64,000 nucleotides of DNA. Source: a virus (lineage: Duplodnaviria; Caudoviricetes). Made by a program: the position numbers and the translations under genes. Shown here one piece after another: positions 2,793 through 47,682 of the stretch. The stretch is from positions 9,614-73,613 of the IMG/VR virus record IMGVR_UViG_3300020036_003099; one strand, written 5' to 3'. The notes beneath the pieces were generated by a model. It was not told where the DNA came from, did no database searches, and saw nothing but the letters and a program-made list of their open reading frames with translations. Numbering within the stretch: position 1 is the stretch's first letter; the number at the start of each line of letters is the position of its first letter.

Positions 2793-5222
2793 TTATTCTT
2801 TAGTTTTTGGTTTCTCGGTTTTGGCTTTAGCAGTTCTGTCTTTCTCCTTAGACGCAACATCGATAGCTTTTGAAACAAAGTCAGACATCTGTTTCATTTG
2901 AGCTTGCGTTTGCTGGGTTTCCGCTTGCATAGCCGCAACAACCAATTTGTTTTCTTCGGCTTGCTGCTTGAGAGCCAGCTCCATGGATTTCAAGGTGCGC
3001 TCGAAAAGACTTTCTTGCATTTCAAGTTGTAGCTTTCTACCTTCGTTTTGAGCCCGCATGACTTCAGCATCAGCCAGTTTATTCTTGGCACCGTCCACAC
3101 CTTGGGCTTCCAGCTCGGCCAGTCTTTGGTTTGTTTGAGCGATCTTCTGAGCGGCTTGACCGACAATTTGTTCGTTCATTTGCTGGTTAGGATCGCCGCC
3201 AGCGATGGTGCCGCTAATGCTTTCTTGGAACTTCAAGATAACGTGCTCTTGAATGTTCGCTTGGATTATCGGAATAATAGCTTGCATAAAAGGTGAGCCA
3301 CCGCTTTGGGGATCTTGTAAGAAAGCCGACTTCACTTGGATGTGACTGTCGTGATCCTGTCCAGGGAAAGCCTTTATAGGTTTACCTTGCTGGGCCGCTA
3401 AAAGATCTGAAATAGGATCTTGCTCTTGAGGTTGCTCGGGGTCAGGTAGGAAAAGAGTTATCTTTTGTGTATCTACACCCAAGGACTCGTAGTATTCCTT
3501 TGTCACGGCCCTGATGTCGTGGATCTGCGGGGTTTGCATAGCCGCCGTGTAGATGGCTTGTGCCTGTGTCATACGCTGCGCCTGAGACGAGATGTTGGGG
3601 TCTGACTGTGGAACCACGTCAACTCTACCGTCATAGTCACTCTTTTGGATCTCAAAAGTGTCACCTACAACGTCAAACTCTTCGACTTCACCCAGATACT
3701 CGTAGTTGATACGTGCCAGGATCTTGAACTCTTCCTTTTGGGCTTTGTGAAGACGCTTGTGAACCCCGGAGAAAAACTTGGAAGAAGCCTCTAAAAGAGC
3801 CATCGTGGTTCCTACAGGGCCGTAGTTCGTAGAGTCGGCAATCATTTGCTCGGCTGTATCAGCAAACTTCTGGGCGCGTTCTTCGACAAACTGGTACATC
3901 TGCAAAAGTGTAACCGAGGGTTCTTTGAAAGGCATAAGCTTGAAAGCTTTGTCCAGATCCAGACCACCACACTCAACTTCTTTAAACTGTCCAGGTCCTA
4001 AAGGTCCATCGTCACGAAGTCTGAGGCGTTTGTCTACAAACCCTGCGTTTAGGTTGGCAAACATACCAGAATCAATAAGGGCCCTCATGGTCGAAGTTAG
4101 GGTCATCTGCAGGTTTCCCAAGAGGTGAATGTACCCGAGCCCATAGAAGCCCATACCAGGAACAAATTTATAGTGCGTGAAAACTTGCAACCTTTCTTTT
4201 TTCAGGTCTTCCTCAGCCCAGCCTCGGCGGATGGCCAGAACTGTTTGCGTTTCTCTTTCAAAAGTCAAAATGTAAGGTAAGGCTAAACCGTCAGGATCTG
4301 CAAATCTACCGGGGAGATCCAGATATGTGTGCTGTTCCACAAGTGTGTAAACCCTGTCGGCATCCGAGGGGTTGAAGCCCATGATGTCGTCAACCGCTTG
4401 GGTCAAATCACCTTCATCTCCGTAGCCCACGGGGGCTCCCAGATCGACATCTTTGTAGACACCTTGTACTTTCAACTTTTTAAGCTCGTCACCGTTGACA
4501 GACATCACATGTGAAAATGTGTGTGCGCTTTCCAGGTTTGTCGTCGTATAAGGAACGATCAGACTATCCACCGAAACATATTCCGAAGCTGGGCGCTTAA
4601 GAGCCGAGTCGTAGTAAGTCTTTTTAAAACAAGAACCGATAATAGGCAAAAAGAACAAAAGCGTTTCCTGTTCGTCAAAAAACTCCTTTATTTGCTCCAT
4701 AACCTGGTAGTTCATGTGGGCTCTGACCCTTTGGGCCTGACTTTCTTTTTCAGGCGTGACTTTCCCTAGAACCTGTGTTTTCACGGGTCCTTTAGGGTTA
4801 AAGAGCTCTGTTGAAGCCTTTGCCTGGAACTTAACCGCAGACTCAAGGATGAGCGGGTGATGGGCGCTGCAAGCGCCAGGAAAGGGGTCGTTTGTTTCTT
4901 CGATACGGGTTCCTAAAAGGGATAAACCACCTTTGATGCCATCCAACCACTGCTTCCGAGAGCTCTCCGCATCGACCAGCTGCTCGTAACCATTAGCGGC
5001 GATGGCTTGGAGCTCTTGTTCATCCAGGAACTCCGCGATGTTCTCGTCAAAGTCAAAGTCACCTTCGGTGAAGGGGTCCTCACCTTCCTCGGTGTCCTGG
5101 GGTTCAAAGTCAAACTCCGTAGAGCCATCGTCAAACTCCGTAACTCCCACCGATTCATCAGGGGCATCAAAAGGTGTTTGCTCTGCCAAGGCAGAACCTA
5201 AAGGGTTTTTAGTCGTTATCAA
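2793..5222 (-). CDS. Portal protein
   Basis: 809 aa directly after TerL; PFPGACSAHHPLILESAVKFQA, RVRAHMNYQ, GFYGLGYIHLLG, GPVGTTMALLE; C-terminal coiled coil. Confidence 0.9.
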   Translation of the reverse strand: MITTKNPLGSALAEQTPFDAPDESVGVTEFDDGSTEFDFEPQDTEEGEDPFTEGDFDFDENIAEFLDEQELQAIAANGYEQLVDAESSRKQWLDGIKGGLSLLGTRIEETNDPFPGACSAHHPLILESAVKFQAKASTELFNPKGPVKTQVLGKVTPEKESQAQRVRAHMNYQVMEQIKEFFDEQETLLFFLPIIGSCFKKTYYDSALKRPASEYVSVDSLIVPYTTTNLESAHTFSHVMSVNGDELKKLKVQGVYKDVDLGAPVGYGDEGDLTQAVDDIMGFNPSDADRVYTLVEQHTYLDLPGRFADPDGLALPYILTFERETQTVLAIRRGWAEEDLKKERLQVFTHYKFVPGMGFYGLGYIHLLGNLQMTLTSTMRALIDSGMFANLNAGFVDKRLRLRDDGPLGPGQFKEVECGGLDLDKAFKLMPFKEPSVTLLQMYQFVEERAQKFADTAEQMIADSTNYGPVGTTMALLEASSKFFSGVHKRLHKAQKEEFKILARINYEYLGEVEEFDVVGDTFEIQKSDYDGRVDVVPQSDPNISSQAQRMTQAQAIYTAAMQTPQIHDIRAVTKEYYESLGVDTQKITLFLPDPEQPQEQDPISDLLAAQQGKPIKAFPGQDHDSHIQVKSAFLQDPQSGGSPFMQAIIPIIQANIQEHVILKFQESISGTIAGGDPNQQMNEQIVGQAAQKIAQTNQRLAELEAQGVDGAKNKLADAEVMRAQNEGRKLQLEMQESLFERTLKSMELALKQQAEENKLVVAAMQAETQQTQAQMKQMSDFVSKAIDVASKEKDRTAKAKTEKPKTKE

Positions 5223-17994: not shown

Positions 17995-20196
17995 TTGAAA
18001 ATCAACTCTGACGAACACAAGTTGGAGACTGACGGATTCGATCAGTTCCAACAAAAAGGTTTTTCTATCAAACAATCTGCTAGAGCCTTTGAAGTCCTTT
18101 CCTCTAACCTCTACTCAAACAAAGTTAAAGCCATCGTGCGCGAACTGGGTTGCAATGCCTGGGACGCTCACGTTGAGCGAGAGAAGCTAAGGAAAAGAAA
18201 TCCTAAACACCCTCACTTGGCACCGTCTAACCAAGCGTTTGAGATCACCCTGCCTAATACGTGGTCCCCTATGTTTGTCATTAGGGACTACGGTATAGGT
18301 TTGTCTAACGAAGATGTTTTGGGTTTGTACACAACTTACTTTGGATCAACAAAAGAGCAAAGCAATGACACAATCGGAGCCTTTGGACTCGGTTCTAAAT
18401 CTCCGTTTTGTTATACCGATCAGTTCACTGTTACATCTTTCTTCAACGGTACTAAGTCAACTTACCAAGCTTTTATCGGTGAAGATGGTGCCCCCGCCAT
18501 CGCTTTGCTATCATCAGAGCCAACAAGTGAAAAGAATGGTATACAGATCTCTCTTTCAGCCAAAGCCTCTGATTTCAACTCTTTTAAAGATAACACTCAA
18601 GAGGTTTTCAAGTGGTTCACCACTGACAAGCCTTTGGTAAAGGGTCAAAACCCCTTTTGGTTATCCGAGCCTGAAGCTTTTAACGGTAAGAAATGGTCAC
18701 ATTTCTACAGAACCACCAACACCGTCTCTTTTTTTGTTAGGCAAGGGAACGTGGTTTATCTTGTAGATGTCGATTCGTTTTCTACGACTTCGCTATCACA
18801 AACGCACAAATCACTTTTAAAGTATAGTTTTGTCGTGGATGTTCCTATAGGTTCCGTAAATGTCACGGCTTCCAGGGAGCGTTTGAACTATGACCGCAAT
18901 ACAGAGGCGTATCTCGTGAAGATGCTGGACGGTATGCACAAAGAAATAGTTGATGATTTAAAAACCGAAATTAGTGATACAGACACACAATGGAAAGCTG
19001 TAGATTTTTTCAACAAAAGAATTAGACAAGACTCTTTTTATAGTCCCTTGGTTCAAGGCTTGTCTCTGAAAAACGGTTTAAAACTGGAGCACTGCTTGTT
19101 TTTTGATCTACGCAAAGAAACAAAGAATGTCGTGCCAGACCCAAAAGATCCCACAAAAACCTTAACAGTCACCACCAAAGAACCCGTTTTAACAATCTAT
19201 TTTAAAAGCTACCACAGACAAGACTCAATCACTTATGGTTCTTTTTCCCCTGGAGATTACACTTTAGTCTTCGATGATCTACACGTAAGCAGTTTCTGGC
19301 AAAAGTACGATTTAAACAGGGTTGTAGACGGTAAAAAAGTTTGGTTAATCCGCAGAGTAGACAAAAACATGTCCACCACAGACGCTTTAACCCTAATCTG
19401 TAAACAGTTCGGAGATGTTGACCCTAAAGAAATCCTTAAGTTCTCTTCTCTACCAGACCCCGTAAAAGCACCTAAACGCACGACTCAAACAAGAAAGCTT
19501 TTAAAGTTAAACCCTAGCAAGTCTGCTCAAAGAAGCTTCTGTTTTTGGGAGGACGCCACGCACGATATGTCTAAAGGTGGTTATTTTGTCTACACCTACG
19601 CAGGATCACCCGAAGGTTTCCCTTCAATAGGGACAGCTATAAACGAAGCCTACAGTTTAAATCTTTTAAACTCAGTGGAAGTCTTCGGGGTTCCCAGGGG
19701 CTCCAGAGATATGTTCAATAAAGACGTAGCCGCAAATGCTACAAAGTGGGAACCCTTTAAAACCTATTTAAAGGATCAAGTTTTGGCTTTTTCCAAAAAA
19801 TACGACTTTGAAAAAACCGCTGTTTTAAAAAGGGCTTTGTCACTTTTACCTTTAAAGTGGAGGGCAATTTATGGATTCATAACTTTACACAATTTAACTT
19901 GCTCAAAACAGATAATGTCAGCAGTTCAAGCTTACAATTTGTATCTAAAACTGGTTGAACCTGTCGTTTCCGCCTCGTTAACTATTAACAAGTACATCGC
20001 TTTAGGTCACGCAGTTGGTGTAGATGTTCAAGATGTTTTCTCCAGCGAACCTGAAAAAACTGAAAGTGACTACAAATTAGGGTTGACAAAAGAGACACAA
20101 AGCCTTAAAACAAAGTATCCGCTGGTGGATCTCCTTGATTTACCCGAGAAACCTACCCAGGAAGACCTGACCAACATCCAAGCCTATTTAAGCTGA
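17995..20196 (+). CDS. rIIA: rIIA-like protein (GHKL ATPase N-terminus)
   Basis: EVLSSNLYSNKVKAIVRELGCNAWDAH, IRDYGIGL, TTYFGSTK, GAFGLGSKSPF, VTASRERL. Confidence 0.9.
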   Translation: MKINSDEHKLETDGFDQFQQKGFSIKQSARAFEVLSSNLYSNKVKAIVRELGCNAWDAHVEREKLRKRNPKHPHLAPSNQAFEITLPNTWSPMFVIRDYGIGLSNEDVLGLYTTYFGSTKEQSNDTIGAFGLGSKSPFCYTDQFTVTSFFNGTKSTYQAFIGEDGAPAIALLSSEPTSEKNGIQISLSAKASDFNSFKDNTQEVFKWFTTDKPLVKGQNPFWLSEPEAFNGKKWSHFYRTTNTVSFFVRQGNVVYLVDVDSFSTTSLSQTHKSLLKYSFVVDVPIGSVNVTASRERLNYDRNTEAYLVKMLDGMHKEIVDDLKTEISDTDTQWKAVDFFNKRIRQDSFYSPLVQGLSLKNGLKLEHCLFFDLRKETKNVVPDPKDPTKTLTVTTKEPVLTIYFKSYHRQDSITYGSFSPGDYTLVFDDLHVSSFWQKYDLNRVVDGKKVWLIRRVDKNMSTTDALTLICKQFGDVDPKEILKFSSLPDPVKAPKRTTQTRKLLKLNPSKSAQRSFCFWEDATHDMSKGGYFVYTYAGSPEGFPSIGTAINEAYSLNLLNSVEVFGVPRGSRDMFNKDVAANATKWEPFKTYLKDQVLAFSKKYDFEKTAVLKRALSLLPLKWRAIYGFITLHNLTCSKQIMSAVQAYNLYLKLVEPVVSASLTINKYIALGHAVGVDVQDVFSSEPEKTESDYKLGLTKETQSLKTKYPLVDLLDLPEKPTQEDLTNIQAYLS

Positions 20197-22056: not shown

Positions 22057-22342
22057 CGGCAACGTTATTCATGCTCCGTTTGCCTTTCTAGATAACGAAA
22101 GTTTGATCCGGTATTATCGTGAGCGTATGGAAGAGCTGGCACTACTCCCCGAAGCGGGACCACCAGACAGCGCCTTAAACTACACGCTGGACTGGTTAGA
22201 GCGGGAAATAGACGACAGGTATAACACGCAACGCCTGACTTCTTTTGACATATATCGCCTGGGACAAACAACAATAAACAAAGCTGAAAAAAGTTCCAAA
22301 AAAATAAATTTAGGTGTTGACGAAGGACCCTCAGCGGCGTAG
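22034..22342 (+). CDS. Hypothetical protein
   Basis: 102 aa; its 3' end contains the promoter of the ncRNA array. Confidence 0.55.
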   Translation: MKIKRHTSGNVIHAPFAFLDNESLIRYYRERMEELALLPEAGPPDSALNYTLDWLEREIDDRYNTQRLTSFDIYRLGQTTINKAEKSSKKINLGVDEGPSAA

Positions 22343-22345
22343 AAA
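22317..22345 (+). promoter_or_regulatory. sigma70 promoter for the ncRNA array and Ro-like gene
   Basis: A-rich UP element, TTGACG-N17-TAGAAA; predicted +1 at about 22352-22354 coincides with the start of unit 1. Confidence 0.65.
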
Positions 22346-22353
22346 TAAACCTA

Positions 22354-22420
22354 ACGATTGACTGCAGCAAACAACCGCCGAAAGGCACTTGCATCAGGAG
22401 CAAACCAAAGTTCAATCCGT
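22354..22420 (+). ncRNA. Y-RNA-like unit 1
   Basis: Closing stem ACGATTGA/TCAATCCGT (bulged C), CTGCAGCAA motif, GCC-GAAA-GGC hairpin, TTGC-ATCAGGA-GCAA hairpin with a 7-nt loop. Confidence 0.6.
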
Positions 22421-22439
22421 ATCTAAAAGATTCAAATTA

Positions 22440-22499
22440 AGGGTTCTCTACAGCAAACTAAATAATTTTCACTTTCAATGAAAACCAAAAGTAGAACCT
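22440..22499 (+). ncRNA. Y-RNA-like unit 2 carrying a Glu(UUC)-like anticodon stem-loop
   Basis: Stem AGGGTTCT/AGAACCT, CTACAGCAA motif, TTTTCA-CTTTCAA-TGAAAA (loop CU-UUC-AA). Confidence 0.6.
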
Positions 22500-22550
22500 G
22501 TCACCTATCTGGTAAAAAGTACACTATACCTAAATATTTGAAACGCTAAA

Positions 22551-22665
22551 GGGCTAGTTCCAGCATATAATTTGCTCTTGTAAAGCAGAGGTTGTTGGTT
22601 CGAGTCCAACCAGAGGGCGAAAGCCTGATGTAGCTCAATTGGTCGAGCGCTAAAAAAACTAGCCC
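22551..22665 (+). ncRNA. Y-RNA-like unit 3 with circularly permuted tRNA-Thr(UGU)-like domain
   Basis: Perfect 9-bp stem GGGCTAGTT/AACTAGCCC, TCCAGCAT motif, then anticodon arm (CU-UGU-AA), variable loop, T arm, acceptor stem capped by GAAA, D arm; no CCA end. Confidence 0.75.
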
Positions 22666-22685
22666 GTTAGGGTTTCAAATATAAA

Positions 22686-22832
22686 ACGTATGTCTACAGC
22701 AACGGCCCTTTTCCTTTTGGAAAAGACGCCAACTAATTTCCTCGCCTGAGGATGTAGCTCAGCTGGTTAGAGCGCCTGGTCAAAAGCTTGGAGGACGTTG
22801 GTTCGAATCCAACCATTAAAACAACATACCGT
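22686..22832 (+). ncRNA. Y-RNA-like unit 4 with degenerate tRNA body
   Basis: Stem ACGTATGT/ACATACCGT (bulged C), CTACAGCAA motif, two hairpins, then intact D arm and T arm with a defective anticodon arm and only a 3-4 bp acceptor stem. Confidence 0.68.
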
Positions 22833-22866
22833 ATATTACCTAACAAATTAAAAAAGGGGACCAATT

Positions 22867-24324
22867 ATGACGAACTCACCTATCTTCAAAAACGCAATCA
22901 GAAACACACCAGTTAAAGCTTTAACAGCCAACGGCGCTATCACAAACGCGTCTTCTTTGGACCCCTTGGTAGACCTCTTCTTTGTTATCGGCTCTGCTAG
23001 AAACATGTCCGATGCACAACTCTTCCCTATGTTTGAAAAGGCTCTCGCAGAGGACAAGGTTAACACCCTTAAGATGCTCTTTTGGGCCCGTGACATACGT
23101 GGCGGCTCAGGTGAAAGAAAAACCTTTGTCAGGCTTTTCAACTATCTATATAAGCATTACGACTACGAAATGGATGCTATTAGCTTAATCGGTCTTATCC
23201 CCACGTTCGGTAGATTTAAAGATCTTATTGAGTCTTTGCCCCCTGAGGTCGCCGCTGCGTTCCTCTTAAAAGGTATCTCTGCGAAGAACGGCTTGGCTGC
23301 TAAATGGTCCCCGCGTAAAGGTCCTGTGTTCAACGACATGAGAAAGATCCTTAATGTTACCCCTAAAGCCCTCCGTAAAGCCCTTGTGGAGCTCACCAAG
23401 GTGGTTGAAACACAAATGTGTGCGAAACAGTGGGATCAGATTATCTTTGACCACGTGCCTTCTGTGGCTGCTGCTAGATACCAAAAGGCTTTCTCGAAGC
23501 ACCAGCCCGAGCGCTACAAAGCCTACAGGGATGCCCTTAACTCCAAAGACCCTGCTGTAAAGGCTACCGCTAAGATCAACGCTAGCGCTATCTTTCCCCA
23601 CGATGTCCTTAAAAGTCTTCATTTGGGTGATGCAGGGGTTGCTACGGCTCAATGGGAAGCTTTACCCGATTACCTAGGGGACAACAAGATCATCCCTGTT
23701 TGTGACGTATCCGGCTCCATGACTTGCCAAGTTGGTGGTAACCCTAATCTGCGGTGTATCGATATTTGCGTCTCTTTAGGTCTCTACATAGCCGATAAGC
23801 AAAAGGGAGCCTTTAAAGACATTTTCTGCACGTTCTCTTCGAAACCTTCTTTGGAGGTTCTTAAGGGCAACATCGCGCAAAAAGTACGTCAACTAAACGC
23901 CGCCCACTGGGAGATGTCCACCAACGTCGAAGGAGCCTTTAGAGCTATCCTTAAAATGGCTGTGGAGAACAAGGTACCTGCCTCGGACATGCCTAAAATG
24001 CTGCTAATCTTCTCAGATATGGAGTTTAACCCCTCAACAGTGTCTGGATTGACCAATCAGCAAGTCGCTGAAGGATACTTCAAGGCTGCTGGATACAAAT
24101 TACCTAAAATTGTTTACTGGAATCTAAACGCTAGACCAGGCAACAACCCCGTAACGATCCGCGAAGATGGTGTTTGTCTGGTCTCAGGGTTTTCCCCTTC
24201 GATCCTTAAAGCTATCCTGGCTGGTTCTGAAGCCATAGAAGACGACTTTTCACCTAGGGCTATCATGATGAAAACCCTTAATGACCCGCGTTACGCGGTG
24301 GTGGAGGAACTCTTGAAAAAATGA
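22867..24324 (+). CDS. TROVE/Ro60-like helical domain plus vWA protein (DUF2828-type)
   Basis: TANGA, LVDLFF, FWARDIRGGSGERKTF, FGRFKDL, LAAKWSPR; vWA MIDAS VCDVSGSM, STN, FSDMEF, VYWNL, VSGFSP. Confidence 0.8.
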   Translation: MTNSPIFKNAIRNTPVKALTANGAITNASSLDPLVDLFFVIGSARNMSDAQLFPMFEKALAEDKVNTLKMLFWARDIRGGSGERKTFVRLFNYLYKHYDYEMDAISLIGLIPTFGRFKDLIESLPPEVAAAFLLKGISAKNGLAAKWSPRKGPVFNDMRKILNVTPKALRKALVELTKVVETQMCAKQWDQIIFDHVPSVAAARYQKAFSKHQPERYKAYRDALNSKDPAVKATAKINASAIFPHDVLKSLHLGDAGVATAQWEALPDYLGDNKIIPVCDVSGSMTCQVGGNPNLRCIDICVSLGLYIADKQKGAFKDIFCTFSSKPSLEVLKGNIAQKVRQLNAAHWEMSTNVEGAFRAILKMAVENKVPASDMPKMLLIFSDMEFNPSTVSGLTNQQVAEGYFKAAGYKLPKIVYWNLNARPGNNPVTIREDGVCLVSGFSPSILKAILAGSEAIEDDFSPRAIMMKTLNDPRYAVVEELLKK

Positions 24325-25367: not shown

Positions 25368-25988
25368 ATGAACAACCCACAATACGCACACAAAAACGTT
25401 ATCACTGTTGACCAAGCAAAAGAATACGATCACTACATTTTGATTGATCAATCCGGTTCCATGGGTTCGCCCTCAACTAAAATGCAAGGCAAATCCCGCT
25501 GGCAAGAAGCCCAAGAGTTCACAGAAGGCTACGCTCGTTTTGCCGAACAAGTTGACGATGATGGTTTGACGGTTATCACCTTTAACTCTTCTTGTAAGGT
25601 TTACGATGGTGTCAAAGCTGATAAAGTAACGTCTATCTTCGCAAACTCCCCTATGGGTTCCACCAACTTGGCGGCTGCTTTGGAAGCGGCTTTCAAGAAG
25701 AAGTTTTCTGGGTCTAAAAAAGCAATCATGATGGTTTTGACGGATGGCTCACCTGATGACCGTCAAGCCGTTATCCAGTCCATTGAACGGGCCTCTAACA
25801 AACTTGACCGAGACGAAGAGCTGGCTATTCAGTTTATTCAAATTGGCGATGATTCAGGCGCTAAGCAATTCCTGGCAAAACTTGATGACGACCTAAAAGG
25901 CAAGTTTGACATTGTTAACTCTTTGACGCGTGAAGAAGCCGAGAGCCTGACGATTGAAGAACTTCTCTGGCAAGCTCTCAACGATTAG
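25368..25988 (+). CDS. vWA domain protein (Ter-cluster type)
   Basis: MIDAS IDQSGSM, GSTNLAAAL, VLTDGSPDD, FIQIGDD, KLDDDL. Confidence 0.88.
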   Translation: MNNPQYAHKNVITVDQAKEYDHYILIDQSGSMGSPSTKMQGKSRWQEAQEFTEGYARFAEQVDDDGLTVITFNSSCKVYDGVKADKVTSIFANSPMGSTNLAAALEAAFKKKFSGSKKAIMMVLTDGSPDDRQAVIQSIERASNKLDRDEELAIQFIQIGDDSGAKQFLAKLDDDLKGKFDIVNSLTREEAESLTIEELLWQALND

Positions 25989-26102: not shown

Positions 26103-26699
26103 ATGAATAACCCCGCTCAAGCAGCTGCCCCTTTGACTTTCGACATTGTACCCAAAGGCGTAACTGTAGAAGTTAAAGACAAAGCCGGTCAAACTTTCTC
26201 TAAACTGTACGTAGGTGCAGGTTGGGATATGGCTGGATCTGCCTCTGTAGACCTTGACCTTGTTGGTGCTTGCCTCGTGAACGGTAAACTGACAGCTCAA
26301 ACACGTTTGGTTTACTTTGGTGATAAAACAGAGCCAGGTGTTACGTTGTCTGCTGATAACACAACAGGAGCCGGTGACGGTGACGATGAATCCATGGTTA
26401 TCGATCTGGATAAAGTTGAAGCTGAAATCACGTCTATTGCCATCGGTATCATTGCCTACGCTGGCGCTGATATTTCAACGGCTAAGAACGTTCACTTTAG
26501 AGTTTGCAACGGCTCTACCACAAGTGATCCACAAGTTTTCGATGTACCTATGAACCAAGCAACTGCAGGTGACACCGTGCTTCACGCGGCTAACCTTGTC
26601 AGAGGCGCTGGTGGCTGGTCTATCGAGAATGTCTCCAGTTTCTATCAAAAAGGTAACGGGACAGCTGCGGTACAAGGTTTTGCGGGACTATTCGCATAA
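26103..26699 (+). CDS. terD: TerD-family stress protein
   Basis: VGAGWD...DLDLVGA, LVYFGD, DNTTGAGDGDDESMVIDL, GGWSIEN. Confidence 0.88.
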   Translation: MNNPAQAAAPLTFDIVPKGVTVEVKDKAGQTFSKLYVGAGWDMAGSASVDLDLVGACLVNGKLTAQTRLVYFGDKTEPGVTLSADNTTGAGDGDDESMVIDLDKVEAEITSIAIGIIAYAGADISTAKNVHFRVCNGSTTSDPQVFDVPMNQATAGDTVLHAANLVRGAGGWSIENVSSFYQKGNGTAAVQGFAGLFA

Positions 26700-26818
26700 C
26701 AAAGTATGGTGTGTGTCTAGACGTTGATCGAGAGCAACCTTTCACGGTTTCTATCTCTCCAGATTGTTTGTGAGAGGTTGCTTATGGGTCAATTAAAACG
26801 TAAAAAGGAAAATATAGA

Positions 26819-37239: not shown

Positions 37240-37481
37240 AAATTAAGTTAGCTAAAAAGCTTTTAGAATTTAACTTTTTTATCAGACGTTTAGCTTATGT
37301 GCTCGACCCAGAACAGACGCAATCAGTGTTTAGTTTTTATTTCGACCCAGAAAAAGACAAAGTTAGATTTGTGCATAAAGCTTTGAACGACTCTGTGTAC
37401 GATAACTTTGGCATTCATTGGGCTGATTGGGTAGAAATTATTGCAGAAATGCAAAGTAGAAGAGATAACAAAATTGTTTAA
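37185..37481 (+). CDS. Hypothetical protein
   Basis: ORF between PolA and the RNA ligase. Confidence 0.45.
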   Translation: MSPYRGVSRGGFMGTDALKIKLAKKLLEFNFFIRRLAYVLDPEQTQSVFSFYFDPEKDKVRFVHKALNDSVYDNFGIHWADWVEIIAEMQSRRDNKIV

Positions 37482-38007
37482 CGACCCTATCTTTGAAACC
37501 TTTAAACCTTTTGATAAAATATCCCGATTATTCGAACAACCCATTTGTGTCACCGAAAAAATCGACGGTACCAACGCAGTGGTTGTCATCTCTGCAGACT
37601 GCACCGAGATCCGCGCTGGCAGCAGAACCAGATGGATTAGTCCTGAGGATGATAACTACGGGTTTGCCAAATGGGTAGAAGCCAACAAGGAAGACTTAAA
37701 GCTACTTGGGCCTGGCTATCATTTCGGTGAATGGTGGGGACAAGGTATCCAACGAGGCTACGGGATGACTAAAAAAGTCTTCTCTCTTTTCAACGTCAAC
37801 AGGTGGGATAACGAATCAAGGCCAGCTTGCTGTGACGTGGTTCCAACAGTTTTCAAGGGGAAAGATTGGCCTGAAGATCCTATCCACAAGAAACTTCCAC
37901 ATTCCCTCGCAGCAGCCAAATACGGCGTAACCTTTGAGGCCACCGAGGGGCTAGTCTATTGGTTCGCTAACGCTAAAATGTATTTCAAAGTTATTTGGGA
38001 TAAATAA
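37441..38007 (+). CDS. RNA ligase, Rnl2-like nucleotidyltransferase domain only
   Basis: Motif I TEKIDGTNA, GSRTR, FGEWWG, FSLFN, EGLV, FKVIWDK. Confidence 0.82.
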   Translation: MQKCKVEEITKLFNDPIFETFKPFDKISRLFEQPICVTEKIDGTNAVVVISADCTEIRAGSRTRWISPEDDNYGFAKWVEANKEDLKLLGPGYHFGEWWGQGIQRGYGMTKKVFSLFNVNRWDNESRPACCDVVPTVFKGKDWPEDPIHKKLPHSLAAAKYGVTFEATEGLVYWFANAKMYFKVIWDK

Positions 38008-46936: not shown

Positions 46937-46951
46937 ACCCCTTTCATACAT

Positions 46952-47031
46952 AGCAGGGTAGCTTAGTCCGGTCTAAAGCACAGCGTTCATACCGCTGATA
47001 ACGTGGGTTCAAATCCCACCCGCTGCAACCA
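46952..47031 (+). tRNA. tRNA-Met(CAT) (atypical acceptor stem)
   Basis: Anticodon arm CAGCG-TTCATAC-CGCTG, T arm GTGGG-TTCAAAT-CCCAC, encoded CCA. Confidence 0.85.
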
Positions 47032-47046
47032 ATCAATACATGTATA

Positions 47047-47122
47047 GACCAGGTGGCAGAATGACGATGCGCTAGATTGCAGATCTGGTTTAACGCGGGT
47101 TTGATTCCCGTCCTGGTCTCCA
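47047..47122 (+). tRNA. tRNA-Cys(GCA)
   Basis: GACCAGG/CCTGGTC acceptor stem, U73, CCA, loop TTGCAGA. Confidence 0.88.
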
Positions 47123-47152
47123 TGTATACAAAGTAAAAACAAATAAACATAG

Positions 47153-47503
47153 GTGCAACATCTTACCCCGCGCCAAAGAAGGCGCTATCTAAAGAAACAA
47201 AACTACCGCTCATTCCTTGACTCATTAGTTTGTCAGATCTGCGGTCACGATAAACCCCATCACATAGAGCTTCATCACTTAGATCCAACTTCTAAGGAAG
47301 CCAACGTATCCAGACGAATTAACCAGTGCCAATCAGATGTCGCTATCATAACTGAGATTGAAAAGTGCGCTGCTTTGTGTTCTTATTGCCACAAGGATGT
47401 TCATAAGGGATTGCACAGCGATAAAATATTAGAACCGTTAAACTATATCGGTGTAGCACAGGGACAGTGCGCGGGTCTCCAAAACCTTGAGACGTTGGTT
47501 TGA
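47153..47503 (+). CDS. HNH homing-type endonuclease inside the tRNA cluster
   Basis: CQICG...ELHHLDP...EIEKCAALCSYCHKDVH. Confidence 0.85.
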   Translation: MQHLTPRQRRRYLKKQNYRSFLDSLVCQICGHDKPHHIELHHLDPTSKEANVSRRINQCQSDVAIITEIEKCAALCSYCHKDVHKGLHSDKILEPLNYIGVAQGQCAGLQNLETLV

Positions 47504-47521
47504 ATCCAGCCGCCGGTGCCA
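47447..47521 (+). tRNA. tRNA-Trp(CCA)
   Basis: ATCGGTG/CGCCGGT acceptor stem, loop CTCCAAA, G73, CCA. Confidence 0.85.
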
Positions 47522-47526
47522 ATTAT

Positions 47527-47603
47527 TCTCACTAGCCGAACAAGGCGGACGGAGCTGACTGTTAATCAGCGTATGCAAGGTTCGATTCCTTGAGTGAGAA
47601 CCA
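47527..47603 (+). tRNA. tRNA-Asn(GTT)
   Basis: TCTCACT/AGTGAGA acceptor stem, GCTGA-CTGTTAA-TCAGC, T arm CAAGG-TTCGATT-CCTTG, CCA. Confidence 0.88.
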
Positions 47604-47608
47604 ACTAC

Positions 47609-47682
47609 GACTACATCGTTCAGTGACAGGACCTGGGATTGTCTATCCTAAGACCGGAGTTTGATTCTCCGTGTAGTCGCCA
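47609..47682 (+). tRNA. tRNA-Asp(GTC)
   Basis: GACTACA/TGTAGTC acceptor stem, loop TTGTCTA, G73, CCA. Confidence 0.88.

What the first reader, a model, noticed from the sequence alone, without database searches (positions are those of the whole stretch)
22389..22484. Free-standing anticodon stem-loops as cargo in units 1 and 2
Unit 2 contains TTTTCA-CTTTCAA-TGAAAA, a 6-bp stem with a canonical 7-nt anticodon loop CU-UUC-AA (Glu). Unit 1 contains TTGC-ATCAGGA-GCAA, whose loop AU-CAG-GA has U33 and G37 like Leu(CAG), although the stem is only 4 bp. With Thr(UGU) in unit 3, the array presents up to three different anticodon loops, none matching the phage's functional tRNAs (Met, Cys, Trp, Asn, Asp). 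Inference: these are sacrificial decoys for anticodon nucleases or tRNA-modifying toxins.
Basis: partly seen in the sequence, partly recalled or inferred. Interest (0 to 1): 0.7.

Follow-up and report, generated by a model that had tools for sequence, protein, structure and literature searches.

The report
Anticodon-loop bait on phage Ro60-like RNAs
Two small phage RNAs upstream of a Ro60-shaped protein gene share a conserved "handle"; one displays a hairpin built like a tRNA anticodon arm that recurs in related phages far more often than chance, so it is probably a bait for proteins that read anticodon loops, while the other unit's anticodon-like hairpin has no comparative support.

Summary
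Both hairpins are at the stated coordinates. They are the cargo of two units of a four-unit array, not free-standing. Each unit is closed by a covarying helix followed by CU(A/G)CAGCAA, the handle of an RNA family that lies next to DUF2828 genes in very different phages. Here that protein is predicted to fold like Ro60. This scan has met the family many times on other DNA; I found no paper or Rfam family for it.

- Among 65-72 non-redundant short-cargo units, 12-13 carry a hairpin of at least 4 bp with a 7-nt loop C-U-NNN-A-A. Shuffled cargo gives about 0.3, and the reverse complement gives 0.
- Unit 2 aligns end to end with eight such units. The helix keeps pairing through compensatory changes, the loop frame is invariant, and positions 35-36 vary (UGU, UUU, UCU, UUC).

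Unit 2 is therefore a selected anticodon-arm mimic. Unit 1's AUCAGGA loop on 4 bp has no homologue and stays uncertain.

The decoy-for-anticodon-nuclease reading is plausible, because published Cas13a and PARIS targets include Glu-UUC, Thr-UGU and Lys-UUU. It is untested, and recruitment of tRNA repair enzymes is a live rival.

The parts
22317..22345 (+). Promoter-like TTGACG-N17-TAGAAA ahead of unit 1
   Evidence: Read by eye. The consensus scan does not list it because position 6 of the second hexamer is A. No terminator-like site lies between the array and the gene. Its role is inferred only.
22351..22422 (+). Unit 1, a handle RNA. Closing helix GATTGA 22356-22361 with TCAATC 22412-22417; motif CTGCAGCAA 22362-22370; A-rich 3' strand ACCAAAGT 22404-22411; tail CGTAT.
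   Evidence: Model R1 scores 34.4 bits, E about 1e-4 over the whole genome. It was one of the 20 seed sequences.
22377..22386 (+). Unit 1 cargo, first hairpin: GCC-GAAA-GGC mini-helix with a GNRA cap
   Evidence: Present in the cargo fold. The 12-nt CGCCGAAAGGCA recurs in a handle unit of L019 at 2264-2275. Unit 3 has a similar GAAA-capped helix.
22389..22403 (+). Unit 1 cargo, second hairpin: TTGC-ATCAGGA-GCAA, 4 bp with a 7-nt loop (A32 U33 CAG G37 A38)
   Evidence: No homologous hairpin in 168 related loci. A32 and G37 are minority letters among the family's 7-nt loops.
22437..22503 (+). Unit 2, a handle RNA. Closing helix GGGTTCT 22441-22447 with AGAACCT 22493-22499; motif CTACAGCAA 22448-22456; A-rich 3' strand CCAAAAGT 22485-22492; tail GTCA.
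   Evidence: Model R1 scores 48.5 bits, E about 1e-7 over the whole genome; it was a seed. Rfam Dicty_Class_I_RNA scores 30.1 bits, below its gathering score of 41.5.
22466..22484 (+). Unit 2 cargo: anticodon-arm mimic TTTTCA-CTTTCAA-TGAAAA, 6 bp with loop C32 U33 UUC A37 A38
   Evidence: It is homologous to the arm in eight other loci. That arm is 95.6% paired, 3 of its 5 pairs show changes on both sides, and the loop frame is invariant.
22551..22665 (+). Unit 3: handle (GGGCTAGTT ... AACTAGCCC, motif CCAGCAT) with a circularly permuted tRNA-like cargo that keeps an anticodon arm, loop CTTGTAA
   Evidence: Rfam YrlA gives a partial hit of 25.5 bits, below its gathering score of 69. R1 scores 13.9 bits over 22547-22669. 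Shown for context only; another report covers it.
22688..22829 (+). Unit 4: handle (GTATGT ... ACATAC, motif CTACAGCAA) with tRNA-like cargo in normal order
   Evidence: The Rfam tRNA model scores 39.9 bits at 22752-22816. The closing helix was found by script. ARAGORN calls no tRNA here.
22867..24324 (+). DUF2828 + DUF7788 protein of 485 aa: a Ro60-fold ring plus a vWA domain with a DxSxS metal site (D280, S282, S284)
   Evidence: Pfam matches at 1.9e-47 and 2.5e-28. The AlphaFold model has pLDDT 87. The 13 best PDB fold matches are all Ro60/TROVE over the full length, probability 1.00.
37441..38007 (+). RNA ligase family protein (context: the phage can seal RNA)
   Evidence: Pfam PF09414, 43.1 bits against a cut-off of 27.

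Best explanation
Units 1 and 2 are two small partner RNAs of the Ro60-shaped DUF2828 protein encoded 364-445 bases downstream.

Each RNA has two modules.
- The handle is a covarying terminal helix, then single-stranded CU(A/G)CAGCAA on the 5' side, an A-rich strand on the 3' side, and a YGU tail. It is shared with hundreds of phage loci. It is most likely what the protein ring holds, as Ro60 holds the terminal helix of Y RNAs (inferred).
- The cargo differs from unit to unit and is what the particle displays.

Unit 2 displays an anticodon-arm mimic: 6 bp with loop C-U-UUC-A-A. This arm is under selection. Unit 1 displays a GAAA-capped mini-helix plus a weaker 4-bp hairpin that may or may not be read as an anticodon loop. 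Units 3 and 4 display whole tRNA-like bodies.

The particle most likely offers these mimics as bait to proteins that recognise anticodon loops. My first choice is that it occupies or diverts host anticodon nucleases during infection, as a decoy or sponge.

My odds:
- Units 1 and 2 are handle RNAs of this family: 0.9.
- Unit 2's arm is a selected anticodon-arm mimic: 0.8.
- Unit 1's loop is one too: 0.35.
- The mimic works as bait for some anticodon-loop-binding protein: 0.55.
- That protein is a defence nuclease and the RNA is a decoy: 0.3.

The confidence given for this entry (0.55) is for the statement up to and including 'bait for an anticodon-loop-binding protein'.
For: Family and handle.
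- A model of the helix plus motif found 37 matches in viral and GenBank phage loci (some were seeds) and 68 in 80 metagenome loci that were not in the seed. All 105 lie on the strand of the DUF2828 gene and none on the other strand.
- A scan for the handle alone, blind to cargo, gave 180 hits on that strand against 2 on the other.
- The closing helix covaries: 88% of cells are paired against 60% in shuffles, all 7 pairs show changes on both sides, and slid partners give 30-50%.
- The protein folds like Ro60.

Anticodon arm.
- Of 65 non-redundant short-cargo units, 13 have a hairpin of at least 4 bp with loop CU-NNN-AA. Dinucleotide shuffles give 0.3 +/- 0.5 (0 of 500), the reverse complement gives 0, and random segments of the same loci give 0.6 +/- 0.8.
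- The cargo-blind set gives 12 of 72 against 0.28 +/- 0.49.
- Among the 7-nt loops, position 32 is C in 16 of 33 (background C is 0.16) and position 34 is A in only 2 of 33 (background A is 0.46), as in real tRNAs.
- Unit 2 aligns end to end with eight such units. The arm is 95.6% paired with double changes in 3 of 5 pairs. A31, C32, U33, U34, A37, A38 and U39 are invariant, and positions 35-36 vary.
- Units with the same handle (TAGGTTAA) carry UGU, UUU or UCU.
- Six of 34 tRNA-like units keep the same kind of arm, always 5' of the T arm.

Function, by analogy only.
- LshCas13a prefers tRNAs Lys-UUU, Glu-UUC, Gln-UUG and Thr-UGU, and also cuts small loops that mimic the anticodon arm (PMC11042736).
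- PARIS AriB cuts Lys-UUU and Thr-UGU next to U36-A-A-U (PMC12409363). Most family arms carry that sequence.
- This phage has an RNA ligase. Relatives place RtcB, an RNA ligase or a CCA-adding enzyme near the gene.
Against: - No expression, processing or binding data exist for this phage.
- The hairpins are thermodynamically marginal: about -1.4 kcal/mol for the unit 2 arm, and whole-unit z-scores are not significant.
- The units with the canonical loop all come from one clade of the protein family (43-50% identity to the window's protein). They are homologous to one another, so the 12-13 cases are not independent events. In Felix-O1-like phages and phages of Firmicutes, the 7-nt loops of short-cargo units do not have the C-U...A-A frame, although two of their tRNA-like units (L025, L086) keep such an arm.
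- The C-U...A-A pattern was sharpened after seeing the data.
- U-rich 'anticodons' could partly reflect descent from phage tRNA genes rather than matching to nuclease targets.
- Unit 2's C36 lacks the U36 of the AriB site.
- Unit 1's hairpin has no comparative support.
Confidence: 0.55

Rival explanations
1. Adaptor rather than decoy. As with Y RNAs, which tether Ro60 to an effector, the anticodon arm or tRNA-like cargo recruits a tRNA-handling enzyme to the ring. Candidates are an RNA ligase, RtcB, a CCA-adding enzyme, an end-healing enzyme, a modification enzyme or an exonuclease. The particle would then repair or clear damaged tRNAs, and the cargo is not consumed.
For: - The Ro60 fold.
- Gene neighbourhoods: RtcB next to the gene in Listeria phage LMTA-148; an RNA ligase and a tRNA nucleotidyltransferase in Yersinia phage fHe-Yen9-04.
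- One DUF2828 protein is fused to a 2',5'-RNA-ligase-like domain, PF13563.
- An RNA ligase is encoded in this phage.
- Precedents: the Salmonella rsr-yrlBA-rtcBA operon and Y RNA tethering of PNPase (PMC4201824). ROT/TROVE proteins have been described as an RNA-repair platform with a tRNA-like partner in jumbo phages (PMC7824862).
Against: - A bare anticodon arm lacks the elbow and acceptor end that most repair and CCA-adding enzymes recognise.
- Variation of positions 35-36 on one and the same handle fits a panel of specific baits better than one docking site.
- In this window no repair gene lies beside the array; the RNA ligase is 13 kb away.
Confidence: 0.25
2. Inherited shape without anticodon-specific function. 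The units arose from tRNA genes in phage tRNA clusters, and short-cargo units are trimmed leftovers. The hairpin serves only as a spacer that holds the handle together, and the loop frame persists through shared descent.
For: - The units lie inside or beside large tRNA gene arrays in relatives.
- There is a graded series from whole tRNA-like cargo to a lone arm.
- The canonical loops are confined to one clade and are homologous to one another.
- About half of the short-cargo units have no 7-nt loop at all.
Against: In the homologous series the stems have turned over through compensatory changes and the handle helices differ (12 distinct among 13 units). Yet A31, C32, U33, U34, A37, A38 and U39 are invariant. 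This pattern indicates purifying selection on the loop frame, which a spacer would not need.
Confidence: 0.12
3. Unit 1's ATCAGGA hairpin is a chance 4-bp pairing, or part of another fold of the unit 1 cargo, with no relation to anticodon loops. Only the GAAA-capped mini-helix is the real cargo element.
For: - No homologue of this hairpin in 168 related loci, whereas the mini-helix recurs in L019.
- Only 4 bp.
- A32 and G37 are minority letters among the family's 7-nt loops: 9 of 33 and 2 of 33.
- The whole-unit fold does not use this hairpin and scores z = 0.02.
Against: - The cargo-only fold contains it.
- Shuffles of the unit 1 cargo give a 7-nt U33/R37 hairpin only 0.3% of the time.
- The family as a whole is enriched for such loops.
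- L019 has a unit that combines the same mini-helix with a 7-nt-loop hairpin, in the opposite order.
Confidence: 0.5
4. The loop works by base pairing. It is a U-turn loop that kisses a complementary loop or codon-like sequence in another RNA, as in antisense regulators, rather than binding a protein.
For: The C-U-N-N... frame is the classic U-turn that presents three bases for pairing, and positions 35-36 vary.
Against: No target was sought or found. Three bases give little specificity, and the link to a Ro60-like protein and tRNA-like cargo points to protein recognition.
Confidence: 0.05

Closest known systems
Ro60 (Rsr) with Y RNAs, especially bacterial and mycobacteriophage YrlA (Rfam RF02553; Chen et al. 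2014, PMC4201824; Thermus phage phiLo Ro60, PMC12135203)
   Same: - A ring-shaped Ro60-fold protein with a vWA domain.
- Small RNAs encoded beside its gene on the same strand.
- Each RNA is closed by a helix joining its 5' and 3' ends, with a second module that imitates tRNA.
- RNA-repair genes are often nearby.
   Different: - The protein belongs to Pfam DUF2828/DUF7788, not TROVE, and has no sequence-level match to any solved Ro60.
- The handle (helix plus CUNCAGCAA plus A-rich strand) is not the Y RNA Ro-binding helix.
- YrlA matches only the tRNA-like core of unit 3, below threshold, and does not match units 1 and 2.
- YrlA has no anticodon arm, whereas in unit 2 the arm alone is the cargo.
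- Here the RNAs come in arrays of several.
tRNA anticodon stem-loop
   Same: Unit 2 has a 7-nt loop with C32, U33, A37 and A38 and an A31-U39 closing pair. A is avoided at position 34 across the family.
   Different: - The stem has 6 bp instead of 5, almost all A-U.
- There is no D arm, T arm or acceptor arm, and neither ARAGORN nor the Rfam tRNA model calls it.
- It cannot be charged or decode.
Dictyostelium Class I RNAs (Rfam RF01414; Kjellin et al. 2021, PMC7919456)
   Same: - The anatomy is the same: a start at AAG, a terminal helix of about 6 bp that covaries, the motif CCUUACAGCAA right after the 5' strand, a variable A/U-rich rest, and an end at CUGU.
- Unit 2 reads UUAAGGGUUCU-CUACAGCAA ... 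AGAACCU-GU, and the Rfam model scores it at 30.1 bits.
   Different: - The score is below the gathering score of 41.5, and the model hit none of nine related phage loci.
- Class I RNAs are eukaryotic, separately transcribed genes reported as unique to Dictyostelia.
- Their known direct binder is an RRM protein.
- I could not establish whether Dictyostelium has a DUF2828 protein.
Phage tRNAs that overcome tRNA-targeting defences (T5 tRNA variants against PARIS, PMC12409363)
   Same: The RNAs are phage-encoded and carry the anticodon loops of the tRNAs that defence nucleases attack. Thr-UGU and Lys-UUU dominate the family's arms.
   Different: The T5 tRNAs are functional replacements that resist cleavage. 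The units here cannot decode, so they could only compete for the nuclease or bind it.

Membership tests
ACAGCAA-handle RNAs beside DUF2828 genes (undescribed in the literature; seen repeatedly by this scan) | Terminal helix of 6-9 bp joining the 5' and 3' ends, covarying across members | tested here: met
   Unit 1: 22356-22361 with 22412-22417. Unit 2: 22441-22447 with 22493-22499. Family covariation is shown.
ACAGCAA-handle RNAs beside DUF2828 genes (undescribed in the literature; seen repeatedly by this scan) | Motif Y-U-N-C-A-G-C-A-A directly 3' of the 5' strand, an A-rich strand before the 3' strand, and a YGU tail | tested here: met
   CTGCAGCAA and CTACAGCAA; ACCAAAGT and CCAAAAGT; tails CGT and TGT. 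Model scores are 34.4 and 48.5 bits. Both units were seeds, but 68 non-seed matches validate the model.
ACAGCAA-handle RNAs beside DUF2828 genes (undescribed in the literature; seen repeatedly by this scan) | Position next to a DUF2828 gene, on its strand | tested here: met
   The array at 22351-22829 lies directly upstream of the gene at 22867-24324. All 105 model matches elsewhere are on the gene's strand.
ACAGCAA-handle RNAs beside DUF2828 genes (undescribed in the literature; seen repeatedly by this scan) | Made as a stable small RNA and bound by the protein | not testable with these tools
   No RNA run holds this phage. No binding data exist for any member.
Y RNA / YrlA (Rfam RF02553) | Match to the YrlA covariance model at or above its gathering score (69 bits) | tested here: not met
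   No match for units 1 and 2. Unit 3 scores 25.5 bits over model positions 24-84 only.
Y RNA / YrlA (Rfam RF02553) | Partner protein is a TROVE-domain Ro60 | tested here: inconclusive
   Pfam assigns DUF2828/DUF7788, not TROVE. The predicted fold matches Ro60 over the full length.
tRNA anticodon arm (mimic) | 7-nt loop with Y32, U33, R37 and A38 on a stem of about 5 bp | tested here: met
   Unit 2 meets all features, on 6 bp. Unit 1 has U33, G37 and A38, but A32 and only 4 bp, so it meets them in part.
tRNA anticodon arm (mimic) | The feature is conserved in homologues beyond chance | tested here: met
   Met for unit 2. Not met for unit 1.
Functional tRNA | Cloverleaf with acceptor, D and T arms | tested here: not met
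   ARAGORN and the Rfam tRNA model find nothing in 22351-22503.
Dictyostelium Class I RNA (Rfam RF01414) | Match at or above the gathering score (41.5 bits) | tested here: not met
   Unit 2 scores 30.1 bits, E 0.008 in 4 kb. No match in nine related loci.
Dictyostelium Class I RNA (Rfam RF01414) | AAG start, 6-bp helix, 11-nt CCUUACAGCAA motif, CUGU end (PMC7919456) | tested here: met
   Unit 2 reads AAGGGUUCU / CUACAGCAA / AGAACCUGU. This is a resemblance in anatomy only.
Anticodon-nuclease decoy | Bound or cut by a tRNA-targeting nuclease, and protective for the phage | not testable with these tools
   Only published specificities are available: PMC11042736 for Glu-UUC, Thr-UGU and Lys-UUU, and PMC12409363 for Lys-UUU and Thr-UGU.

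The most novel reading that the evidence does not exclude
Phages load a Ro60-like ring with a panel of anticodon arms and tRNA bodies on one common handle. They swap the displayed 'anticodon' (UGU, UUU, UCU, UUC, GUC, GCA and others) to soak up whichever anticodon nuclease their host deploys, for example PARIS AriB, Cas13a or PrrC/RloC-type enzymes. This would be an RNA-decoy counter-defence carried on a protein scaffold. The same handle in the unexplained Class I RNAs of Dictyostelium would then point to a related particle in a eukaryote.
Probability: 0.22. Interest if true: 0.9.

Novelty: new variant of a known kind. Interest (0 to 1): 0.66.

Why it matters
tRNA cleavage has become one of the most common known outcomes of bacterial anti-phage defence. 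The known viral answers are replacement tRNAs and repair enzymes. A phage particle that displays only the part of the tRNA that the nucleases read would be a third answer.

The idea is directly testable with defined RNAs of about 65 nt and known nucleases. It would also give a function to a very large protein family (DUF2828, over 7000 relatives) and to an uncatalogued RNA family found next to it.

Even if the decoy idea is wrong, the result narrows the search for the partner. Within one handle family the loop frame is fixed while the 'anticodon' changes, so whatever binds the cargo reads anticodon loops.

Tried and rejected
- Tandem Repeats Finder sees no array; the units share only the handle.
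- The promoter and terminator scan lists neither the TTGACG/TAGAAA site nor any terminator in the gap.
- Thermodynamic z-scores for units 1 and 2 are not significant, so folding energy is not used as evidence.
- A sequence search of the protein against PDB found nothing; only the fold search did.
- Sequencing runs: no RNA holder is listed, and only two DNA runs hold a small share of the words. I did not lay reads.
- My first script scans for motif plus any 6-7 bp helix were too noisy, with about half as many hits on the wrong strand. I replaced them with the covariance model and a stricter handle scan.
- The U33 + R37 criterion gave 22 observed against 19 in the reverse complement. With A at position 37 the pattern is its own reverse complement, so this control says nothing. 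I rely on the C32...A38 frame instead.
- Displayed anticodons against neighbouring tRNA genes gave a mixed picture: the same anticodon is present in 3 loci and absent from the fetched part of the others. The loci are partial, so no rule can be drawn.
- Listeria phage CKA15 transcriptomics (PMC12282133): the dominant non-coding transcripts at 26,236-26,727 map to L080 1979-2470, which has no handle motif. The three handle units lie at L080 3150-3425. That paper therefore cannot serve as expression evidence for handle RNAs.
- Dictyostelium link: three protein searches found eukaryotic DUF2828 proteins in fungi, plants and dinoflagellates, but no Dictyostelium entry came into view. The Avesson 2011 paper is not held.
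- A blastn-short search for relatives of unit 1's cargo found only the GNRA mini-helix.
Full report
**What is at the coordinates.**

The finding lies in a 524-base gap (22343-22866) between a small ORF and a 485-aa ORF on the + strand.
- TTGC-ATCAGGA-GCAA at 22389-22403;
- TTTTCA-CTTTCAA-TGAAAA at 22466-22484.

ARAGORN finds tRNA genes for Met, Cys, Trp, Asn and Asp far away at 46951-47682. It finds none in the other 9.6 kb of the genome. The genome is a complete 73.6-kb phage genome with terminal repeats.

**The setting.**

The gap holds four units with one plan.
1. A terminal helix whose sequence differs from unit to unit.
2. Directly after its 5' strand, the motif CU(A/G)CAGCAA (CCAGCAU in unit 3).
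3. A variable cargo.
4. An A-rich strand, the 3' strand of the helix, and a YGU tail.

Units 3 and 4 carry tRNA-like bodies. Rfam gives a partial YrlA match of 25.5 bits for unit 3 and a tRNA match of 39.9 bits for unit 4. Units 1 and 2 carry the short hairpins of this finding, so the hairpins are cargo inside closed units, not free-standing.

The gene downstream (22867-24324) matches Pfam DUF2828 and DUF7788 and has a vWA metal site, DxSxS. It has no sequence-level match in PDB. Its AlphaFold model (pLDDT 87) matches Ro60/TROVE structures over the full length in all 13 top fold hits. Those hits are frog and human Ro60, Deinococcus Rsr and the Thermus phage Ro60. tblastn finds relatives of the protein in 702 phage records, from coliphages to Listeria, Staphylococcus and mycobacteriophages, often annotated 'RNA-binding protein'.

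**The units belong to a real, widespread RNA family.**

The motif ACAGCA clusters beside the DUF2828 gene in very divergent viral contigs. It lies upstream in some lineages and downstream in Felix-O1-like phages.

I built a covariance model of the helix plus motif from 20 short units. Its matches were:
- 37 in viral and GenBank loci, including Listeria, Staphylococcus, Bacillus and Enterococcus phages;
- 68 in 80 metagenome loci that had no part in the seed.

All 105 matches lie on the strand of the DUF2828 gene.

The closing helix covaries. 88% of cells are paired against 60% in shuffles, every pair shows changes on both sides, and sliding the partner drops pairing to 30-50%. In the whole genome of this phage only units 1 and 2 match, at 34.4 and 48.5 bits. 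Unit 3 appears at 13.9 bits when the filters are off.

I found no paper on this RNA family and no Rfam family that reaches its threshold. This scan has reported the same handle-plus-DUF2828 pairing many times on other DNA, so the family itself is not new to the scan.

I took the cargo of all non-redundant short units (65 units, mean 34 nt). I listed every hairpin with at least 4 contiguous pairs and compared the counts with dinucleotide-preserving shuffles.

| Measure | Observed | Shuffles |
|---|---|---|
| Units with any 7-nt-loop hairpin | 33 | 18.1 +/- 3.3 |
| 7 nt is the loop size of the best hairpin | 14 | 4.6 +/- 2.0 |
| 7-nt loop with U33 and R37 | 22 | 3.6 +/- 1.8 |
| 7-nt loop reading C-U-NNN-A-A | 13 | 0.3 +/- 0.5 |

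No shuffle in 500 reached any of these observed values.

Further controls:
- The reverse complement of the same cargos gives 0 for C-U-NNN-A-A.
- Random segments of equal length from the same loci give 0.6 +/- 0.8, with a maximum of 3.
- The U33/A37 pattern is its own reverse complement, so the reverse-complement control is silent for it.

The model's seed held a few such hairpins. To avoid that bias I repeated the test on units found by a handle-only scan that ignores the cargo. That scan gave 180 hits on the gene's strand against 2 on the other strand. It left 72 non-redundant units, 12 of them with the C-U-NNN-A-A loop, against 0.28 +/- 0.49 in shuffles.

Composition of the 7-nt loops also follows tRNA rules:
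- C at position 32 in 16 of 33 (background 0.16);
- U at position 33 in 20 of 33;
- A at position 37 in 25 of 33;
- A at position 38 in 22 of 33;
- A at position 34 in only 2 of 33 (background 0.46).

The triplets displayed include UGU (the commonest), UUU, CUU, UCU, UUC, GUC, GCA, UGA, GUA and GUG.

**Unit 2 specifically.**

A plain MAFFT alignment of unit 2 with eight units from other loci aligns from end to end at 70% mean column identity. In it:
- the arm is 95.6% paired, with changes on both sides in 3 of its 5 pairs;
- A31, C32, U33, U34, A37, A38 and U39 are invariant;
- positions 35 and 36 vary.

Three units with the same handle helix (TAGGTTAA) carry UGU, UUU and UCU on an identical stem. 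Two units with the handle TAGGATGC keep CUUGUAA on stems that differ by two compensatory pairs.

The rows were chosen because they have the hairpin, so the pairing percentage is partly by construction. The pattern of a fixed frame with moving stems and a moving triplet is not.

The same kind of arm sits 5' of the T arm in 6 of 34 tRNA-like units, among them unit 3 of this window, a Felix-O1-like phage and an Enterococcus phage. Unit 2 is thus the minimal member of a series that runs from a whole tRNA mimic down to the anticodon arm alone.

**Unit 1 specifically.**

Its cargo is a GCC-GAAA-GGC mini-helix followed by the 4-bp hairpin. Shuffles of this cargo rarely give a U33/R37 7-nt hairpin (0.3%), and the family is enriched for such loops. 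But no related locus has a homologous hairpin. Only the mini-helix recurs, in a unit of L019 that also has a 7-nt-loop hairpin in the opposite order. A32 and G37 are minority letters in the family. I put the chance that unit 1's loop is read as an anticodon loop at about one in three.

**How it most likely works.**

Shown:
- the handle is conserved and covaries;
- it travels with a Ro60-fold protein gene;
- the anticodon-arm cargo is under selection.

Inferred by analogy with Ro60 and Y RNAs (PMC4201824):
- the ring holds the handle;
- the cargo is displayed.

Two published specificities make defence nucleases the leading candidates.
- Activated LshCas13a prefers tRNAs Lys-UUU, Glu-UUC, Gln-UUG and Thr-UGU, and also cuts small loops that mimic the anticodon arm (PMC11042736).
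- PARIS AriB cuts Lys-UUU and Thr-UGU beside U36-A-A-U (PMC12409363). Most arms of the family carry that sequence.

Unit 2 (UUC) and unit 3 (UGU) match two of the four preferred Cas13a substrates.

This is analogy, not evidence of function. U-rich triplets may also reflect descent from phage tRNA genes, and the host of this phage is unknown.

The main rival is that the cargo docks a repair or processing enzyme, as Y RNAs dock PNPase. Gene neighbourhoods support it:
- RtcB in Listeria phages;
- an RNA ligase and a CCA-adding enzyme in a Yersinia phage;
- a DUF2828 protein fused to a 2',5'-ligase-like domain;
- an RNA ligase in this phage.

'None matching the phage's functional tRNAs' is true here but is not a rule. 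In L131 and L164 a real tRNA gene with the same anticodon lies directly beside the arm-bearing unit, and L133 has one within the locus.

**Comparison with known systems.**

- **Ro60 with Y RNAs of the YrlA type.** This is the closest system in function. Membership fails on the RNA model and is open on the protein, which has the Ro60 fold but not the TROVE profile.
- **Dictyostelium Class I RNAs.** This is the closest RNA in anatomy: AAG start, 6-bp helix, CCUUACAGCAA, variable rest, CUGU end (PMC7919456). Rfam's model scores unit 2 at 30.1 bits, below its threshold, and misses other phage units. I could not find out whether Dictyostelium has a DUF2828 protein. A protein of unknown function, DDB_G0281243, was pulled down with a Class I RNA (bioRxiv 10.1101/2020.04.05.026054) and should be checked.

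**Limits.**

- No expression or binding data exist for this phage.
- The abundant non-coding RNAs reported for a Listeria phage map to a stretch without the handle, so they do not help.
- The arm-bearing units come from one clade and are related to one another.
- The sharp loop pattern was defined after looking at the data.
- Folding energies are marginal.

**Verdict.**

- The anticodon-loop reading is supported for unit 2 and open for unit 1.
- The decoy function is plausible and untested.

Noticed in passing
L096:2426-2499, L127:2017-2094, L162:2405-2474: Three metagenome phages have units with the same handle helix (TAGGTTAA) and the same arm stem, but display UGU, UUU and UCU. Only loop position 35 differs. 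This looks like switching of the displayed 'anticodon'.
   Followed up: partly
L081:5010-5163 (Staphylococcus phage S-CoN_Ph12): Two handle-RNA matches (5019-5089 and 5096-5163) lie directly after the RNA-binding protein gene. The first overlaps an annotated 30-aa 'hypothetical protein' (5010-5099), which is probably not a gene.
   Followed up: no
L079:5381-5623 (Cronobacter phage S13): Two oversized 'tRNA' annotations (tRNA-Ser of 121 nt and tRNA-OTHER of 113 nt) sit just downstream of the DUF2828 gene. They may be handle units with tRNA-like cargo.
   Followed up: no
L080:3150-3425 (Listeria phage LMTA-148; same stretch in A511, P100 and CKA15): Three handle units lie in tandem directly upstream of the RNA-binding protein gene, conserved at 95-100% in 54 Listeria phage records. 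RtcB lies 3 kb downstream.
   Followed up: partly
P0001, P0002: Fused forms of the protein exist. One is DUF2828/DUF7788 joined to a RecQ-type helicase (1148 aa) and one is joined to a 2',5'-RNA-ligase-like domain, PF13563 (905 aa).
   Followed up: no
P0132-P0166: Eukaryotic DUF2828/DUF7788 proteins occur in dinoflagellates (Symbiodinium, Polarella, Prorocentrum), plants (Thlaspi, Malus) and fungi (Coniochaeta, Phlebia, Rhizophlyctis). Whether handle-type RNAs accompany them is unknown.
   Followed up: no
L067:4474-4547: A near-threshold match to the c-di-GMP-I-GGC riboswitch (55.9 bits against a gathering score of 59) lies just downstream of a DUF2828 gene in a viral contig.
   Followed up: no
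L006:424-498, L101:907-983, L127:718-795: Amber-suppressor-type tRNA genes (anticodon CUA, labelled Pyl by ARAGORN) lie in the tRNA clusters around DUF2828 genes of several related phages. L101 also has a tmRNA.
   Followed up: no
window 17995-20196, 25368-25988, 26103-26699: Neighbours of the array and gene are a 733-aa protein with a GHKL/HSP90-type ATPase domain upstream, and a small vWA protein (TerF-like) and a TerD-domain protein downstream.
   Followed up: no
window 22418-22440, 22500-22550, 22666-22687: The spacers between units share a short TTCAAAT / ATTTGAAA element. It may be a processing signal or part of longer stems around the units. I did not analyse it.
   Followed up: no
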